From Flavobacteriaceae bacterium (lineage in GTDB: Bacteria; Bacteroidota; Bacteroidia; Flavobacteriales; Flavobacteriaceae): a stretch of 64,000 nucleotides of DNA. The first letter of the stretch is position 1. Each line of letters begins with the position of its first letter. The DNA lies in assembly GCA_002694465.1 (NCBI GenBank), contig NZMG01000030.1, forward strand, positions 3,488 to 67,487. The letters run 5' to 3'. Of this stretch, positions 6,171 to 20,625 are shown one piece after another. The notes below the pieces were generated by a model. That model had not been told where the DNA came from and ran no database searches. It saw nothing but the letters and a program-made list of their open reading frames with translations. The position numbers and the translations under genes were made by a program.

Positions 6171-6773
6171 ATGAAAAATTCACTCTTTTTAATTGTAGCC
6201 TTATTGTTTTTTGTTGGCTGTAAAGATAATCCAGTTTCAAAAAAAATTAAAGAGGCTAAACAAAATGTCAGCAATACCAATAGTGCAATTGAAGAACTCA
6301 ACGATATGCAAGAGGATATCGAAGAATTAAAAGAGATAACACCCCTTACTAATGATGAACTGAAAGCTTGGTTGCCAGATGAAATTAACGGTATGAAACG
6401 TACTTCTTTCAAAGCTGGGCAAACTAGCTTTATGAAAATTGCATCTATTGAAGCAAGTTATTCTAACGAAGACAAATCAAAAACATTTAAAATACAAGTC
6501 ATTGATGGTGCAGGCGAAATGGGAGCTGCAGCAACCGCAGGAATGCGCATGCTCTTTTCACAGGATTTTGAGGAAGAAACAGAAACACAAGTAAAAAGAT
6601 CTATAAAAAAGAAGGGTGTAAAAGCGATTGAAGAATATCGTAAAGATGGAAGCAATTGTACTATCCAATTTATGCAAGATGATCGTTTTTATATAAATGC
6701 TAGTGGTCGTAACATGGATTTAGATGAAACATGGAAAGCGATAGATGATTTAGATGTTCAAAATTTGGGATAA
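6171..6773 (+). CDS. Hypothetical lipoprotein
   Basis: Lipobox LLFFVG-C followed by a coiled-coil-like segment; own terminator downstream. Confidence 0.75.
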   Translation: MKNSLFLIVALLFFVGCKDNPVSKKIKEAKQNVSNTNSAIEELNDMQEDIEELKEITPLTNDELKAWLPDEINGMKRTSFKAGQTSFMKIASIEASYSNEDKSKTFKIQVIDGAGEMGAAATAGMRMLFSQDFEEETETQVKRSIKKKGVKAIEEYRKDGSNCTIQFMQDDRFYINASGRNMDLDETWKAIDDLDVQNLG

Positions 6774-17552: not shown

Positions 17553-17921
17553 ATGTTTATCATGAGAAAATTATTAGTAGTATTTACTATTTCTCTTTTA
17601 GCAGGGTCGGCTTTTTCACAAGAAAAAGTACAAGATGAATTTGTTAAAGAAGGAAAAGTGATTAAAGCTACGCTTTACCATGAAAATGGAATGGTAGCTC
17701 AAACTGGTTTTTACACATTGGATAATAAACTAGAGGGTGAATGGATAAGTTATGATGCAGTAGGAAATAAAACTGCTGTAGCTCACTACAACAAGGGAAA
17801 CAAAGTTGGTACATGGTATTTTTACCAAGGTAATGAGATTAAGGAGGTAAATTACTCCAATTCTAAAGTTGCCAAAGTGACTTCTTTTAAGATTACAGAT
17901 GCTGTTGTGATATCCAACTAA
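17553..17921 (+). CDS. Secreted MORN-variant repeat protein (YwqK-like)
   Basis: Signal peptide (start may be 17562); repeats YHENGMVAQTGFY, LEGEWISYDAVGNK, KVGTWYFY. Confidence 0.75.
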   Translation: MFIMRKLLVVFTISLLAGSAFSQEKVQDEFVKEGKVIKATLYHENGMVAQTGFYTLDNKLEGEWISYDAVGNKTAVAHYNKGNKVGTWYFYQGNEIKEVNYSNSKVAKVTSFKITDAVVISN

Positions 17922-17940: not shown

Positions 17941-17972
17941 AAAAAATGCCTCAATTTTGAGGCATTTTTTGT
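17941..17972 (+). terminator. Rho-independent terminator
   Basis: aaaaaatgcctca-attt-tgaggcatttttt perfect stem. Confidence 0.88.
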
Positions 17973-18044
17973 TTATGGGATATATTTAAAACTTTAACAA
18001 AGTAATAAGATTTGAAAATTTTTAAAATATATATTTTTGGGGTC

Positions 18045-18317
18045 ATGTTAAAATCGGTTGCACATAGCTTTTTTTCGCTTTTTTTCATCATAGCGTTGTT
18101 AGGACCTTCTGTTTTTCAGTTGTGTGCTAAAGATGTTGCTCCAATTGTTATAACTATTCAGGAGGAAGAGGCGAAAGAAAAAATATTTTCAATTACCGAT
18201 TACGTTTCTCATATTCATGTTTATGTTCCCAAAAAGGAATTAAATACTGCCTACGTTGAAAGGCGCTATATACACACTTCAGAAGTTTTTCTACCTCCCC
18301 CAGAACATATTAGTTAG
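18045..18317 (+). CDS. Small uORF ending in ...EVFLPPPEHIS upstream of SulP; probably leaderless
   Basis: 90 aa from ATG 18045 (the track uses TTG 18012); hydrophobic N-terminus, acidic middle, C-terminal PPP. Exact -7 TATTTTTG at 18032-18039 puts the TSS at about the ATG. Confidence 0.7.
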   Translation: MLKSVAHSFFSLFFIIALLGPSVFQLCAKDVAPIVITIQEEEAKEKIFSITDYVSHIHVYVPKKELNTAYVERRYIHTSEVFLPPPEHIS

Positions 18318-18391
18318 TTTTTCGATTTTTTAAAAAATTAATATAAAATCTGTTTGAAAAGTATTTTTTCAAACCACTAATCTATTATAAT

Positions 18392-19984
18392 ATGTTTAAA
18401 TCGTTACGAAATGACATACCAGCGAGTATTGTCGTATTTTTTGTAGCATTGCCGTTATGTTTAGGTATTGCCCTTGCCAGTGGAGCACCTTTATTTTCAG
18501 GTTTAATTGCTGGTATTGTAGGGGGGGTTATTGTTGGATCTTTAAGTGGGTCTAAAATTGGAGTTTCTGGTCCTGCGGCAGGATTAGCAGCCATTGTATT
18601 GACAGCCATAGGAACCTTAGGTGGGTTTCAAAATTTTTTGGTGGCTGTTGTATTGGCAGGTGTAATACAGCTTTTGTTTGGAATTTTAAAAGCTGGAATT
18701 ATTGCATATTACTTTCCTTCTTCTGTGATAAAGGGAATGCTAACAGGAATAGGAATTATTATTATATTAAAACAAATCCCCCATTTTTTTGGATATGATC
18801 CAAATCCAGAAGGAGATTTTGCTTTTTTTGAAGTTTCAGGAGATAATACTTTTTCAAGTCTTATTAAGACCATTAATAACATCATCCCCGGCTCTGCCTT
18901 AATTGGTATAGTTGGCTTAGGAATATTAATCCTGTGGGAAAAAGTGTTGTCTAAAAAAGGAAAGATATTTCAATTAGTTCAAGGACCCTTGGTAGCCGTG
19001 ATTGTGGGGATTGCGTTTTATGCACTTACAAAGTCTCATGATTCACTTTCCATTGCAGGATCACATTTGGTAAGTGTACCTGTTCCAGAGGATGCCGCCT
19101 CTTTTTTAGGACAATTTAGTTTTCCAAATTTTTCAGTCATTACCCAACAAGATATTTGGATTGTGGCATTTACTTTAGCTTTGGTAGCGAGTCTTGAAAC
19201 TCTGCTTTGTGTTGAAGCAACCGATAAACTTGACCCAAATAAAAACGTTACACCTACTAATAGGGAACTTTTCGCACAAGGGGCGGGAAATATTATTTCG
19301 GGATTAATTGGAGGGTTGCCTATTACACAAGTAATTGTGAGGAGTTCTGCTAACATCCAATCTGGAGGAAAGAGTAAAATGTCCACCATTATACATGGGT
19401 TTTTCCTATTAATTTCTATCATATTGATACCAAAATTGCTTAATATGATTCCCCTTTCTGTACTTGCAGCAATTTTACTTGTGGTTGGTTATAAATTGGC
19501 AAAACCGCAATTATTTAAAAAGATGTATGATTTAGGGTGGAAACAATTTGTACCTTTTACGGTAACAGTTTTGGGGATTATTTTTATTGATCTTTTATAT
19601 GGAATAGGATTAGGATTACTAGTAGGGATTGTTGTAATTCTTATTAAAAGTTATCAAAATTCCCATTTCCTGCATAAAGAGGATGTAAGTAATGGAGTCC
19701 AGAAATTGAAAATGACGTTAGCGGAGGAAGTGACCTTTTTTAACAAAGGAGCAATATTAAAGGAATTGGATAGAATCCCTAGTGATTCATATGTTGAGTT
19801 AGACGTAAGAAAAACTCGATATTTGGATAATGATATTATTGAAATATTAGATGATTTTGCGTATAAAGCTAAGGAAAGAAATATTACGATTAAGTTAATT
19901 TCTGAAAGAGGGACGGTTGTTAACCCTCCTAGTTATATTGAATTTTTTAAATTAAGACCAGTAACCGAACAATTTACAAACTAA
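18392..19984 (+). CDS. SulP family inorganic anion (probably bicarbonate) transporter
   Basis: ALPLCLGIALASGAP..SGLIAGIVGG, VSGPAAGL, NRELFAQGAGN, C-terminal STAS-like domain; directly upstream of a carbonic anhydrase. Confidence 0.93.
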   Translation: MFKSLRNDIPASIVVFFVALPLCLGIALASGAPLFSGLIAGIVGGVIVGSLSGSKIGVSGPAAGLAAIVLTAIGTLGGFQNFLVAVVLAGVIQLLFGILKAGIIAYYFPSSVIKGMLTGIGIIIILKQIPHFFGYDPNPEGDFAFFEVSGDNTFSSLIKTINNIIPGSALIGIVGLGILILWEKVLSKKGKIFQLVQGPLVAVIVGIAFYALTKSHDSLSIAGSHLVSVPVPEDAASFLGQFSFPNFSVITQQDIWIVAFTLALVASLETLLCVEATDKLDPNKNVTPTNRELFAQGAGNIISGLIGGLPITQVIVRSSANIQSGGKSKMSTIIHGFFLLISIILIPKLLNMIPLSVLAAILLVVGYKLAKPQLFKKMYDLGWKQFVPFTVTVLGIIFIDLLYGIGLGLLVGIVVILIKSYQNSHFLHKEDVSNGVQKLKMTLAEEVTFFNKGAILKELDRIPSDSYVELDVRKTRYLDNDIIEILDDFAYKAKERNITIKLISERGTVVNPPSYIEFFKLRPVTEQFTN

Positions 19985-19995
19985 AATAAAAGAGT

Positions 19996-20625
19996 ATGAA
20001 AGCACACACTAGAGAAACACAGGCTACAATGACGCCTCAAAAGTCATTACAATATTTAAAAGAAGGAAACGAACGATTTCAAAATAACTTAAAGGCAAAT
20101 AGAAACCTCTTAGAGCAAGTAAACGATACTAGCGATGGGCAATTTCCATTTGCAACCATTTTAAGCTGTATAGATTCTAGAGTTTCTGCAGAGTTAGTTT
20201 TTGACCAAGGATTAGGAGATATATTTAGCGTAAGGATTGCTGGAAATTTTGTGAATGAAGATATCTTAGGAAGCATGGAGTTTGCTTGCAAATTGGCTGG
20301 AACAAAGCTCATAGTTGTTTTAGGACATACCGCATGTGGCGCTGTAAAAGGGGCTTGCGACCATGCCGAAATGGGAAACCTTACAAAACTTATTCAGAAA
20401 ATAACGCCTGCAGTAAATGCTGTTACCGAGCCTAAAGATGAAAGTTTACGTAATTCGGCCAATGCTGAATTTGTGGATGCGGTTTCTGAAAAGAATGTTC
20501 AACTTACTATTGATCGAATACATGCAGAAAGTCCAATACTTTCCGAAATGGAGAAAAATGGTGAAATCATGATTATTGGAGCTATGTATGATATCAATAC
20601 TGGTGCAGTTACATTTTATGAATAA
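19996..20625 (+). CDS. Beta-class carbonic anhydrase
   Basis: GQFPFATILSCIDSRV, VRIAGN, VVLGHTACGAV Zn-ligand motifs. Confidence 0.95.
   Translation: MKAHTRETQATMTPQKSLQYLKEGNERFQNNLKANRNLLEQVNDTSDGQFPFATILSCIDSRVSAELVFDQGLGDIFSVRIAGNFVNEDILGSMEFACKLAGTKLIVVLGHTACGAVKGACDHAEMGNLTKLIQKITPAVNAVTEPKDESLRNSANAEFVDAVSEKNVQLTIDRIHAESPILSEMEKNGEIMIIGAMYDINTGAVTFYE

What the first reader, a model, noticed from the sequence alone, without database searches (positions are those of the whole stretch)
18032..18391. Leaderless uORF with a C-terminal PPP motif ahead of SulP-carbonic anhydrase: candidate arrest peptide
Seen: a perfect -7 (TATTTTTG, 18032-18039) places the TSS at about ATG 18045. The 90-aa product has a hydrophobic N-terminal segment, an acidic patch and the ending EVFLPPPEHIS*. 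There is no terminator before sulP, but a 9-bp hairpin (GTTTGAAAA-gtatt-TTTTCAAAC, 18352-18374) sits 17 nt before the sulP ATG. Established: polyproline stretches stall ribosomes (relieved by EF-P), and secretion-signal-plus-RAPP uORFs (ApdA/ApdP; CruR of the DUF2946 family) control downstream genes by stalling. Inference: a Bacteroidota 'xxPP' arrest peptide regulating bicarbonate uptake and CA expression.
Basis: partly seen in the sequence, partly recalled or inferred. Interest (0 to 1): 0.62.

Follow-up and report, generated by a model that had tools for sequence, protein, structure and literature searches.

The report
Conserved polyproline leader peptide before SulP
A small unnamed gene ending in three prolines sits in front of a bicarbonate-transporter and carbonic-anhydrase operon in most Flavobacteriaceae; its last codons base-pair with the transporter's start codon, which is the layout of a ribosome-pausing switch that would control inorganic-carbon uptake.

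Summary
The 90-aa ORF (18045-18317) belongs to a large unannotated family. A profile search found 690 proteins, none with a Pfam or NCBIfam match. The family is present in 207 of 301 sampled Flavobacteriaceae genomes, almost always as a single copy, with a few members elsewhere in Bacteroidota.

Across about 100 genera only four things are conserved:
- an N-terminal transmembrane helix ending in an invariant Pro
- an EEE patch
- PPP (98-100%) placed 3-5 codons before the stop
- all spacings (EEE to PPP is 54-55 residues)

In 119 of 120 loci the ORF comes first and is followed 53-180 nt later by SulP, or by beta-CA then SulP.

The new result is an RNA structure. The codons right after PPP, plus the stop codon, pair with the downstream start codon region: -8.6 kcal/mol against -4.7 shuffled and -5.7 non-cognate (p about 1e-12). 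A 9-bp hairpin ends 17 nt before the AUG.

This is the architecture of a SecM/CruR-type arrest or pausing leader peptide, but PPP-based and controlling SulP/CA. Ribosome stalling itself and the signal it senses remain untested. The leaderless start is specific to this genus.

The parts
17941..17970 (+). Terminator-like hairpin (ATGCCTCA..TGAGGCAT followed by a T run) that closes the upstream gene (17553-17921). It implies the leader ORF has its own promoter.
   Evidence: Read from the sequence. Sub-threshold Rfam matches to sRNA 3' ends lie here. It is not listed by the consensus scan.
17992..17999 (+). CTTTAACA motif about 51 nt upstream of the leader ATG. It is conserved at that distance in many genera. 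It could be a -33-region promoter element or a regulator site; its function is unknown.
   Evidence: Upstream sequences of 101 loci.
18032..18039 (+). Bacteroidota -7 promoter box TATTTTTG (TAnnTTTG).
   Evidence: A TAnnTTTG box is found upstream of the ORF in 82 of 101 loci. It lies 5 nt from the ATG in this genus and 15-23 nt elsewhere.
18045..18317 (+). Leader ORF of 90 aa: MLKSVAHSFFSLFFIIALLGPSVFQLC...IQEEEAKEK...EVFLPPPEHIS*.
18048..18125 (+). Codons for the N-terminal transmembrane helix (residues 2-27), which contains the invariant Pro21. Charges predict an N-in/C-out orientation.
   Evidence: AF2 gives a helix at 2-27 with pLDDT 87-93 and the rest below 66. Conservation is shown.
18162..18170 (+). 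EEE codons (residues 40-42), 90-97% conserved. They lie 20 residues after Pro21. They lie 54-55 residues before the last Pro of PPP in most genera, and 46 in this genus.
18294..18302 (+). PPP codons (residues 84-86), the proposed pause or arrest site.
   Evidence: 98-100% conserved across 101 genera. All four Pro codons are used at each position, so selection acts on the amino acid.
18303..18312 (+). 5' arm of the outer helix P1 (GAACAUAUUA, from the E-H-I-S codons). It acts as an anti-start-codon element.
18313..18342 (+). Local helix formed by the stop-codon region (GUUAGUUUUU : AAAAAUUAAU). In other genera the equivalent pairing is GGUUAGUC : GACUAACC.
18352..18374 (+). Conserved 9-bp hairpin that ends 17 nt before the sulP AUG.
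18388..18397 (+). 3' arm of P1 (UAAUAUGUUU), which contains the sulP AUG at 18392-18394.
18392..19984 (+). SulP-family anion (probably bicarbonate) transporter with a C-terminal STAS region. This is the controlled gene.
   Evidence: PF00916, E 1e-64. It scores below the curated cut-offs for BicA, DauA and sulP.
19996..20625 (+). Beta-class carbonic anhydrase, the second gene of the operon.
   Evidence: PF00484, E 9e-42; NF011765 at 269 bits, above its cut-off of 221.

Best explanation
The ORF is a cis-acting regulatory leader peptide at the head of the SulP/carbonic-anhydrase operon.

Shown here:
- In the free mRNA, the last codons of the leader (those directly after PPP, plus the stop codon) pair with the region from about -20 to +5 of the sulP start codon.
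- A conserved hairpin sits inside this long-range helix.
- Bacteroidota do not use Shine-Dalgarno sequences, and translation initiation there depends on an unstructured start region (PMC6847099).

Inferred:
- The helix keeps sulP translation low.
- A ribosome translating the leader slows or arrests at the invariant Pro-Pro-Pro. While it sits there it covers about 15 nt downstream, which is the 5' arm of the helix. The sulP AUG is then free and SulP (with CA behind it) is made.
- Pause length is set by the nascent chain. The N-terminal N-in/C-out membrane anchor and the invariant EEE patch sit at a fixed distance from PPP. They are engaged by the membrane-insertion or translocation machinery when the ribosome reaches PPP. 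Pulling on the chain, or binding to it, would shorten the pause.
- Operon expression would therefore report some state of the membrane or envelope, as in SecM, VemP, MifM and CruR. EF-P activity would also modulate the pause.

The identity of the signal is not known.
For: 1. The family is real and translated. A profile search found 690 proteins. It is present in 207 of 301 genomes of the family, with no internal stops and one copy per genome. dN/dS is 0.10-0.31.

2. The conservation pattern is that of an arrest peptide. Only Pro21, EEE and PPP (plus E/K/D after PPP) are conserved, and 3-6 variable residues lie between PPP and the stop in 222 of 228 sequences. All four Pro codons are used. No fold is predicted beyond the TM helix.

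3. Spacings are fixed although the linker sequence is free. Pro21 to EEE is 20 residues (IQR 19-20), EEE to the last Pro is 54 (IQR 54-55), and total length is 99 (IQR 98-100). In CruR the spacing between the sensor and arrest motifs is critical (bioRxiv 10.1101/2022.03.18.484875).

4. The ORF is always the first gene and always directly upstream on the same strand of SulP or CA. This holds in 119 of 120 loci and also where CA precedes SulP. It also holds in other Flavobacteriales families, another order and another class. In one genus the ORF persists ahead of CA although SulP is reduced to a 57-aa remnant.

5. The RNA switch is supported statistically.
   - Duplex of [last Pro codon to stop+6] with the cognate start region [-20 to +12]: -8.6 kcal/mol. 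Controls give -4.7 shuffled, -5.7 non-cognate and -4.2 to -4.6 for other ORF windows, with p between 1e-12 and 1e-15 (n=107).
   - The cognate duplex is still better than non-cognate partners from the same clade (p 7e-6, 2e-3 and 1e-4).
   - Pairing maps to nt +9 to +25 from the first nt of PPP and to -20 to +5 of the AUG.
   - The same architecture appears in single-sequence folds across genera.
   - On 15 hand-picked sequences, 88.7% of cells pair against 24-51% when the partner is slid, and the covariation score is reached by 2 of 500 shuffles.
   - Synonymous divergence drops at the 3' end of the ORF.

6. In a thermodynamic model, a ribosome placed at PP|P raises the unpaired probability of the start region from 0.39 to 0.49 (p 2e-8). 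In this window it rises from 0.29 to 0.62. A ribosome placed 9 codons upstream has no effect.

7. The same genome has a second leader with the same layout but a validated-type motif. It has a TM segment, a His/Cys-rich stretch and RGPP three residues before the stop, and it lies ahead of a TonB-dependent receptor.
Against: - No direct evidence of pausing exists.
- PPP pauses are normally relieved by EF-P, which the genome encodes. PPP is not avoided in this genome's long ORFs (75 observed against 41 expected). PPP by itself need not be a strong arrest.
- The motif lacks the Arg-Ala/Gly of RAPP/RGPP/RAGP arrest cores.
- dN/dS of about 0.1-0.3 also holds in the variable middle part within the genus, as expected for a functional protein.
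- The predicted gain in start-site accessibility is moderate, and the sequences are AU-rich.
- In fixed register, only the first 4-7 pairs (GAACAU:AUGUUY) are clearly paired, and these are coding positions on both sides.
- The seven CA-first loci do not show the pairing; only 1 of 7 does.
- The controlled genes have no known link to protein export, unlike those of the classical monitoring substrates.
Confidence: 0.6

Rival explanations
1. The ORF encodes a functional single-pass micro-protein that works in trans with SulP and/or CA, for example as an accessory subunit, an assembly factor or a periplasmic tether. The pairing with the sulP start would only provide translational coupling for stoichiometric synthesis. 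PPPE would be a binding motif.
For: Purifying selection acts over the whole ORF (dN/dS 0.10-0.31). The TM helix, EEE patch and length are conserved. There is a precedent for a small protein as a component of a bicarbonate transporter: SbtC in cyanobacteria (bioRxiv 10.1101/2025.11.25.690420, listed; abstract only read).
Against: The ORF is always the first gene and never sits elsewhere in the operon or genome. Positions 55-78 are unconstrained across genera, and no fold is predicted. The invariant PPP sits exactly one footprint upstream of the anti-start element and is followed by a few variable residues. The ORF is retained ahead of CA where SulP is only a remnant. This reading does not exclude the leader function.
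Confidence: 0.2
2. Leader translation unmasks the sulP start constitutively, as simple translational coupling. PPP merely lengthens the open time or reflects EF-P capacity. The TM segment only brings the mRNA to the membrane so that SulP is inserted co-translationally, comparable to XBP1u pausing and mRNA targeting in eukaryotes. No environmental signal is sensed.
For: The same RNA evidence applies. A terminating ribosome opens the start region as well as a ribosome paused at PPP does (0.51 against 0.49). EF-P is present and PPP is not avoided in the genome.
Against: This does not explain the invariance of the EEE patch or of the exact EEE-PPP spacing. It also does not explain why SulP, which has its own TM segments, would need a targeting leader.
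Confidence: 0.15
3. The paused ribosome controls transcription rather than translation. It would block Rho, as with CruR and TnaC, or prevent an intrinsic attenuator from forming in the 74-nt spacer.
For: This is the architecture of CruR, where a RAPP stall shields a rut site. In one clade a short GC hairpin directly follows the stop codon.
Against: Terminator-like hairpins with a T tract occur in only 9 of 109 spacers, and none occurs in this window. The conserved pairing partner of the leader's end is the start codon itself. Rho dependence cannot be assessed in silico. This mechanism could act in addition to the translational one.
Confidence: 0.05

Closest known systems
CruR (Bp2923, DUF2946) of Bordetella pertussis
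   Same: It is a small first gene of an operon for an envelope transporter. It has an N-terminal export signal or N-in/C-out TM segment. It has a short invariant sensor motif at a critical fixed distance from a xxPP motif that lies three residues before the stop. The rest of the protein is poorly structured.
   Different: The sensor is CXXC (copper) rather than EEE. The arrest core is RAPP rather than (L/S)PPP. The output is Rho-dependent termination rather than start-codon masking. The target is a TonB-dependent transporter rather than SulP/CA. There is no Pfam DUF2946 match. A separate RGPP leader of CruR type exists elsewhere in this genome and shows no profile relation to this family.
Sec/YidC monitoring substrates: SecM, VemP, MifM, ApdA/ApdP/ApcA and the Bacteroidota uORF clusters of Fujiwara et al. 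2024 (PMC10987492)
   Same: These have an N-terminal signal or TM segment and an arrest motif a few codons before the stop. The stalled ribosome melts an mRNA helix that hides the downstream initiation site, and the arrest is released by pulling force.
   Different: They regulate SecA, SecDF or YidC, and that survey looked only upstream of such genes. Their cores are RAGP, RAPP, RGPP or other motifs; the Bacteroidota clusters described there end in NSP, NAP or DGMK at the stop. Here the core is PPP, the target is an anion transporter with carbonic anhydrase, and what is masked is the AUG itself in an SD-less system.
EF-P-dependent polyproline pausing used for tuning expression (e.g. CadC; PPP context rules, PMC4176338)
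   Same: Three consecutive prolines are present, and the residues flanking them are conserved. EF-P is present in the genome.
   Different: In those cases PPP lies inside the regulated protein and tunes its own copy number. Here it lies in a separate leader ORF, immediately 5' of an RNA element that masks the next gene.
Leader-peptide translational attenuation of the ermC/ermB type
   Same: A ribosome stalled in a short leader ORF opens a helix that sequesters the start region of the downstream gene.
   Different: Those leaders are 10-40 codons long and cytoplasmic, and they stall only with a bound antibiotic. This one is about 99 codons long with a membrane anchor and a conserved ruler.

Membership tests
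Regulatory arrest peptides (monitoring-substrate type) | A small ORF directly upstream of the controlled gene, on the same strand and in the same transcription unit | tested here: met
   This holds in 119 of 120 loci with a median gap of 83 nt. There is no terminator in the spacer.
Regulatory arrest peptides (monitoring-substrate type) | An N-terminal signal sequence or TM segment that engages the export or insertion machinery | tested here: met
   A hydrophobic helix at residues 2-27 is confidently predicted and conserved. Orientation is inferred from flanking charges only.
Regulatory arrest peptides (monitoring-substrate type) | A conserved arrest motif a few codons before the stop, with the rest of the chain variable | tested here: met
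   PPP is 98-100% conserved and is followed by 3-6 residues before the stop in 222 of 228 sequences.
Regulatory arrest peptides (monitoring-substrate type) | An mRNA structure that hides the downstream initiation region and overlaps the footprint of the stalled ribosome | tested here: met
   The feature is not seen in the seven CA-first loci.
Regulatory arrest peptides (monitoring-substrate type) | Demonstrated elongation arrest (peptidyl-tRNA accumulation, toeprint or Ribo-seq peak) that is relieved by the monitored activity | not testable with these tools
RAPP-like arrest peptides (ApdA/ApdP/ApcA, SecM RAGP) | An R-A/G-P-P/G core with an essential Arg | tested here: not met
   The residues before PPP are L/S preceded by L/I/F. 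There is no conserved Arg.
RAPP-like arrest peptides (ApdA/ApdP/ApcA, SecM RAGP) | The controlled gene encodes a Sec or YidC component | tested here: not met
   The downstream genes are SulP and beta-CA.
CruR / DUF2946 | A match to Pfam DUF2946, a CXXC motif and a RAPP motif | tested here: not met
   No Pfam or NCBIfam match for the window protein or for 46 family members. There is no conserved Cys pair.
EF-P-dependent polyproline pause sites | Three or more consecutive prolines, with EF-P encoded in the genome | tested here: met
   PPP is at residues 84-86. efp scores 229.8 bits, above its cut-off. Pause strength was not measured.
Small accessory membrane subunits of transporters (rival) | A stable mature protein that interacts with the transporter and acts in trans | not testable with these tools
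   Only indirect evidence is available: no predicted fold beyond the TM helix, and purifying selection over the whole ORF.

The most novel reading that the evidence does not exclude
The leader is a nascent-chain sensor of membrane energisation or of a periplasmic ion.

When the ribosome reaches PPP, the invariant EEE cluster lies 52-55 residues from the peptidyl-transferase centre. That would place it in or just beyond the SecYEG channel, with the N-in/C-out anchor already inserted. The membrane potential would pull electrophoretically on the three carboxylates and shorten the pause. Alternatively, protonation or cation binding at EEE could do so.

SulP/CA synthesis would then be switched by proton-motive force, pH or a cation, linking inorganic-carbon uptake and pH homeostasis to the energetic state of the cell in marine Flavobacteriaceae.

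In other systems, charged residues in a translocating chain feel such a force (PMC13307174; Ismail et al. 2015 NSMB, recalled from memory, paper not held).
Probability: 0.2. Interest if true: 0.9.

Novelty: new variant of a known kind. Interest (0 to 1): 0.72.

Why it matters
If the reading is right, this is a widespread regulatory nascent peptide that has not been described. It occurs in at least 70% of Flavobacteriaceae genera and sporadically elsewhere in Bacteroidota.

- **Wider scope for arrest or pausing peptides.** It would extend them beyond protein-export genes and beyond RAPP-type cores. Here a plain PPP is embedded in a conserved context, with a membrane anchor and an acidic sensor at a fixed ruler distance.
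- **A new form of translational control in Bacteroidota.** It would show how a phylum without Shine-Dalgarno sequences builds a translational switch, by masking the AUG itself.
- **A handle on inorganic-carbon uptake.** It would be the first regulatory handle on the SulP/carbonic-anhydrase pair. That pair is the presumed bicarbonate-uptake module of abundant marine heterotrophs, and its control is unknown.

The family also gives annotators a name for several hundred hypothetical proteins. It gives experimenters a compact, testable cis element.

Tried and rejected
- **Known families.** No Pfam or NCBIfam match for the window protein or for 46 members; only scattered weak hits to TM or charged low-complexity families. 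No Rfam family in the leader.
- **Single-sequence searches.** They found only 4-6 close relatives. The family became visible only after weak full-length hits in other genera were aligned.
- **RNAalifold on MAFFT alignments of the spacers.** It gave an empty consensus because arm lengths and registers differ. I therefore tested pairing per locus with flexible register and matched controls.
- **Fixed-register pair count on 45 loci.** Beyond the first about 7 pairs it did not beat shuffled partners.
- **Intrinsic-terminator attenuation.** Rejected as the conserved mechanism; found in only 9 of 109 spacers.
- **Homology between this family and the RGPP leader of the same genome.** Not supported; hhalign probability 3%.
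- **Spurious ORF.** Rejected.
- **TTG 18012 as the start codon.** Rejected because it lies upstream of the -7 box and homologues begin at the ATG.
- **C-terminal sorting signals (T9SS CTD, PEP-CTERM-like).** Considered and rejected because only 3-5 residues follow PPP.
- **Ismail et al. 2015.** The paper is not held.
Full report
**1. Observation**

- TATTTTTG lies at 18032-18039 and the ATG at 18045.
- The ORF runs to 18317 and encodes MLKSVAHSFFSLFFIIALLGPSVFQLCAKDVAPIVITIQEEEAKEKIFSITDYVSHIHVYVPKKELNTAYVERRYIHTSEVFLPPPEHIS*.
- The hairpin GTTTGAAAA-gtatt-TTTTCAAAC occupies 18352-18374 and ends 17 nt before the ATG at 18392.

The downstream genes are a SulP-family permease (18392-19984; PF00916, E 1e-64) and a beta-carbonic anhydrase (19996-20625; PF00484, E 9e-42; NF011765 above its cut-off). 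The consensus scan finds no terminator-like site in the 74-nt spacer. A terminator-like hairpin with a T run (about 17941-17970) closes the upstream gene, so the leader should have its own promoter.

**2. The ORF is a member of a large unnamed family**

Single-sequence searches found only close relatives (6, 4). A six-frame search of relatives then showed weak but full-length matches in other genera. All had an N-terminal hydrophobic segment, an acidic patch and ...PPPE.. at the end, and all lay in front of SulP or CA.

A profile built from these sequences (A1) retrieved 690 proteins at E<=0.01. All were annotated as hypothetical, none had a Pfam domain, and lengths were 90-115 aa. Named sources included Zobellia, Arenibacter, Maribacter, Sediminicola, Aurantibacter and others.

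In one genome per genus of the family, 207 of 301 genomes had a match. It was nearly always a single copy and never had internal stops. This is an underestimate. Of 20 genomes without a match, 14 lack the orthologous SulP. Of the 6 that have it, 3 do carry a divergent copy ending ..VSPPPEA*..IPIPPPESC* or ..ITSPPPDIS*.

Members also occur in:
- other Flavobacteriales families (..IFSPPPEA*)
- a large genus of the same family (..IFAPPPNLA*)
- another order of the class (..LEIFLPPPERNIA*)
- another class of the phylum (..EVHTPPPELSHIA*)

In each case SulP lies downstream. The nearest named genome to the window is Halomarinibacterium sedimenti (92% identity for this protein). No Pfam, NCBIfam or Rfam entry covers the protein or the leader RNA. 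Literature searches found no description of it.

**3. What is conserved**

In an HMM alignment of 101 genus-level sequences, the high-information positions are:
- the start Met and Lys3
- the hydrophobic helix, with an invariant Pro21 (A-P-S/T)
- E40-E42 (90-97%)
- P93-P95 (98-100%)
- the following residue (E 67%; otherwise K, D, N or R)

Positions 55-78 carry almost no information.

PPP is a run of exactly three prolines in 219 of 228 sequences. The stop follows 3-6 residues later in 222 of 228. All four proline codons are used at each of the three positions, so the constraint is on the amino acids and not on the RNA.

Lengths are unusually rigid for such a variable sequence: Pro21 to EEE is 20 residues (IQR 19-20), EEE to the last Pro is 54 (IQR 54-55; 46 in the window's genus), and the total is 99 (IQR 98-100).

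AlphaFold2 with a 46-sequence alignment predicts only the helix at residues 2-27 with confidence. Residues 28-90 have pLDDT 44-66 and no secondary structure. Within the genus dN/dS is 0.10-0.31 over the whole ORF, so it is translated and its sequence matters. Synonymous divergence is lower at the 3' end (0.11 and 0.33, against 0.43 and 1.24 in the middle part for the two closest pairs), as expected if the RNA there is also constrained.

**4. Genomic position**

I examined 123 loci, mostly one per genus. In 119 of the 120 with downstream sequence, the ORF is followed on the same strand by SulP (most cases) or by beta-CA and then SulP. It is always the first gene. The spacer to the next start codon has a median of 83 nt (10th-90th percentile 68-119). 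In the Zobellia-type locus the ORF is kept although only a 57-residue SulP remnant precedes CA.

**5. A conserved RNA structure links the end of the ORF to the next start codon**

The MFE fold of the window pairs GAACAUAUUA (18303-18312, the E-H-I-S codons just after PPP) with UAAUAUGUUU (18388-18397, containing the sulP AUG). This helix encloses the 9-bp hairpin.

I tested the pairing across 107 loci. The duplex between [last Pro codon to stop+6] and the cognate start region [-20 to +12] averages -8.6 kcal/mol. The controls were:

| Control | Mean kcal/mol |
|---|---|
| Shuffled 5' segment | -4.7 |
| Non-cognate 5' segment | -5.7 |
| Equal-length windows elsewhere in the ORF | -4.2 to -4.6 |

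Wilcoxon p values lie between 1e-12 and 1e-15.

The cognate duplex remains better than non-cognate partners within the same clade. This also holds when only the -22 to +3 window is used, which is non-coding apart from the AUG (p from 7e-6 to 6e-4). That is covariation in a flexible register.

Pairing maps to nt +9 to +25 counted from the first nt of PPP, and to -20 to +5 around the AUG. Typical pairs are GAACAUAUC:GAUAUGUUC, ACAUAGU:ACUAUGU and ACAUAUUAUAAU:AUUAUAAUAUGU.

Single-sequence folds in many genera give the same three elements:
- an outer helix (anti-start with start region)
- a helix of the stop-codon region (e.g. GGUUAGUC:GACUAACC)
- a hairpin

On 15 sequences that I hand-picked, so with selection bias, the outer helix has 88.7% of cells paired against 24-51% when the partner is slid. 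Four pairs show double-sided changes. The covariation score is 0.230 against 0.137, reached by 2 of 500 shuffles.

In 97 loci the segment folds to -8.3 against -3.4 kcal/mol for shuffles (p 2e-17), with about 9 bp and a 3' end a median 17 nt before the AUG.

There are caveats:
- RNAalifold on MAFFT alignments failed.
- In fixed register only GAAC(AU):(AU)GUUY is clearly paired, and those positions are coding on both sides.
- The seven CA-first loci do not show the pairing.

**6. Mechanism**

Established background:
- Bacteroidota mRNAs lack Shine-Dalgarno sequences. Initiation is tuned by secondary structure of the start region and by upstream adenines (PMC6847099).
- Consecutive prolines slow peptide-bond formation, and EF-P relieves this (PMC4176338).
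- Arrest peptides with an N-terminal export signal and a motif a few codons before the stop control the next gene, because the stalled ribosome remodels the mRNA (PMC7897499, PMC10987492). In CruR the spacing between sensor and arrest motif is critical.

Shown here: the anatomy described above.

Modelled here: a ribosome with the second Pro codon in the P site (footprint -12 to +14) raises the unpaired probability of the start region (-8 to +5) from 0.39 to 0.49 (p 2e-8). In this window the rise is from 0.29 to 0.62. A ribosome placed 9 codons upstream does nothing (0.40). A terminating ribosome opens the region to the same degree (0.51).

Inferred: the time a ribosome spends at PPP sets how long the sulP AUG is exposed. 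The nascent chain (membrane anchor, EEE, ruler) sets that time.

The signal is unknown. Candidates are translocation or insertion force, membrane potential acting on EEE, pH or cations at EEE, and EF-P capacity. Intrinsic-terminator attenuation is not conserved (9 of 109 spacers). A Rho component cannot be judged in silico.

**7. Points against a strong arrest**

EF-P is encoded in the genome. PPP is not avoided in its long ORFs (75 observed against 41 expected). The motif lacks the Arg of RAPP-type cores. A trans-acting function of the mature micro-protein is not excluded and may coexist with the leader function.

**8. The leaderless claim**

A TAnnTTTG box is found upstream in 82 of 101 loci. 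Its G lies 5 nt from the ATG in the window's genus (5 of 5 loci) but 15-23 nt away in most genera. In F. johnsoniae most transcripts are leadered. Leaderless initiation is therefore plausible for this genus only, and it is untested. It is not part of the conserved design.

**9. Comparison and novelty**

In function and layout the element is closest to CruR and to the SecM/VemP/ApdA class. It fails their membership tests: no DUF2946 match, no CXXC, no RAPP/RGPP/RAGP core, and no Sec/YidC or TonB-receptor target.

I file it as a new variant of a known kind. It is a PPP-based leader with a membrane anchor and an acidic patch that masks the AUG of an anion-transporter/carbonic-anhydrase operon in an SD-less phylum.

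The same genome carries a separate RGPP leader of CruR architecture ahead of a TonB-dependent receptor. The last codons of that leader also pair with the next AUG. This suggests the design is used repeatedly in this lineage.

**10. Verdict**

- Confidence is 0.6 for a PPP-pause leader that controls access to the sulP start codon.
- Confidence is about 0.2 for the specific membrane-potential or ion-sensing version.
- Interest is 0.72.

Noticed in passing
Own genome, contig C56, reverse strand (6192-6524 counted on the reverse complement); outside the window: A 110-aa ORF with an N-terminal TM segment, a His/Cys-rich stretch and ...YRLRGPPHIS* (RGPP three residues before the stop). It lies 49 nt upstream of a TonB-dependent receptor (CarbopepD_reg_2 + Plug + barrel). 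This is the architecture of the copper-sensing uORF CruR, but there is no Pfam or NCBIfam match and no profile relation to the PPP family. Its last codons (CAUAUAU) pair with the downstream UAUAUG in the MFE fold.
   Followed up: partly
window 17992-17999: A CTTTAACA motif lies about 51 nt upstream of the leader ATG and is conserved at that distance in many genera. In most genera it lies about 21-26 nt upstream of the -7 box (the -33 region). In the window's genus the -7 box has moved 12 nt closer to the ATG while the motif kept its distance to the ATG.
   Followed up: partly
L011/L016 (G007:C16, a Zobellia genome): The leader ORF is intact, but only about 57 codons resembling the SulP N-terminus follow it before the carbonic anhydrase gene. 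The genome's best other SulP match is distant (E 2e-21). So this is a leader-CA unit without a full SulP.
   Followed up: partly
protein P0006: A database entry listed with '-' for sources, as for the window's own proteins, starts at TTG 18012 and lacks QLCAKDVAPIV (11 aa). It is again 90 aa long. I cannot derive it from the window sequence and its origin is unclear.
   Followed up: no
CA-first loci L007, L012, L027, L042, L089, L092, L104: Where beta-CA rather than SulP follows the leader, the spacer is longer (92-265 nt) and contains strong local hairpins. The pairing between the leader's end and the start codon is absent in 6 of 7 loci. Either the CA start codons are mis-assigned or these loci use another read-out.
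   Followed up: partly
window 17941-17970: A hairpin ATGCCTCA-att-TGAGGCAT flanked by an A run and a T run looks like a bidirectional terminator after gene 17553-17921. The consensus terminator scan did not list it. Sub-threshold Rfam hits to sRNA 3' ends fall on it.
   Followed up: no
whole genome G000: PPP occurs 75 times in 2399 long ORFs, against about 41 expected from the proline frequency. Polyproline is therefore not counter-selected in this organism.
   Followed up: no
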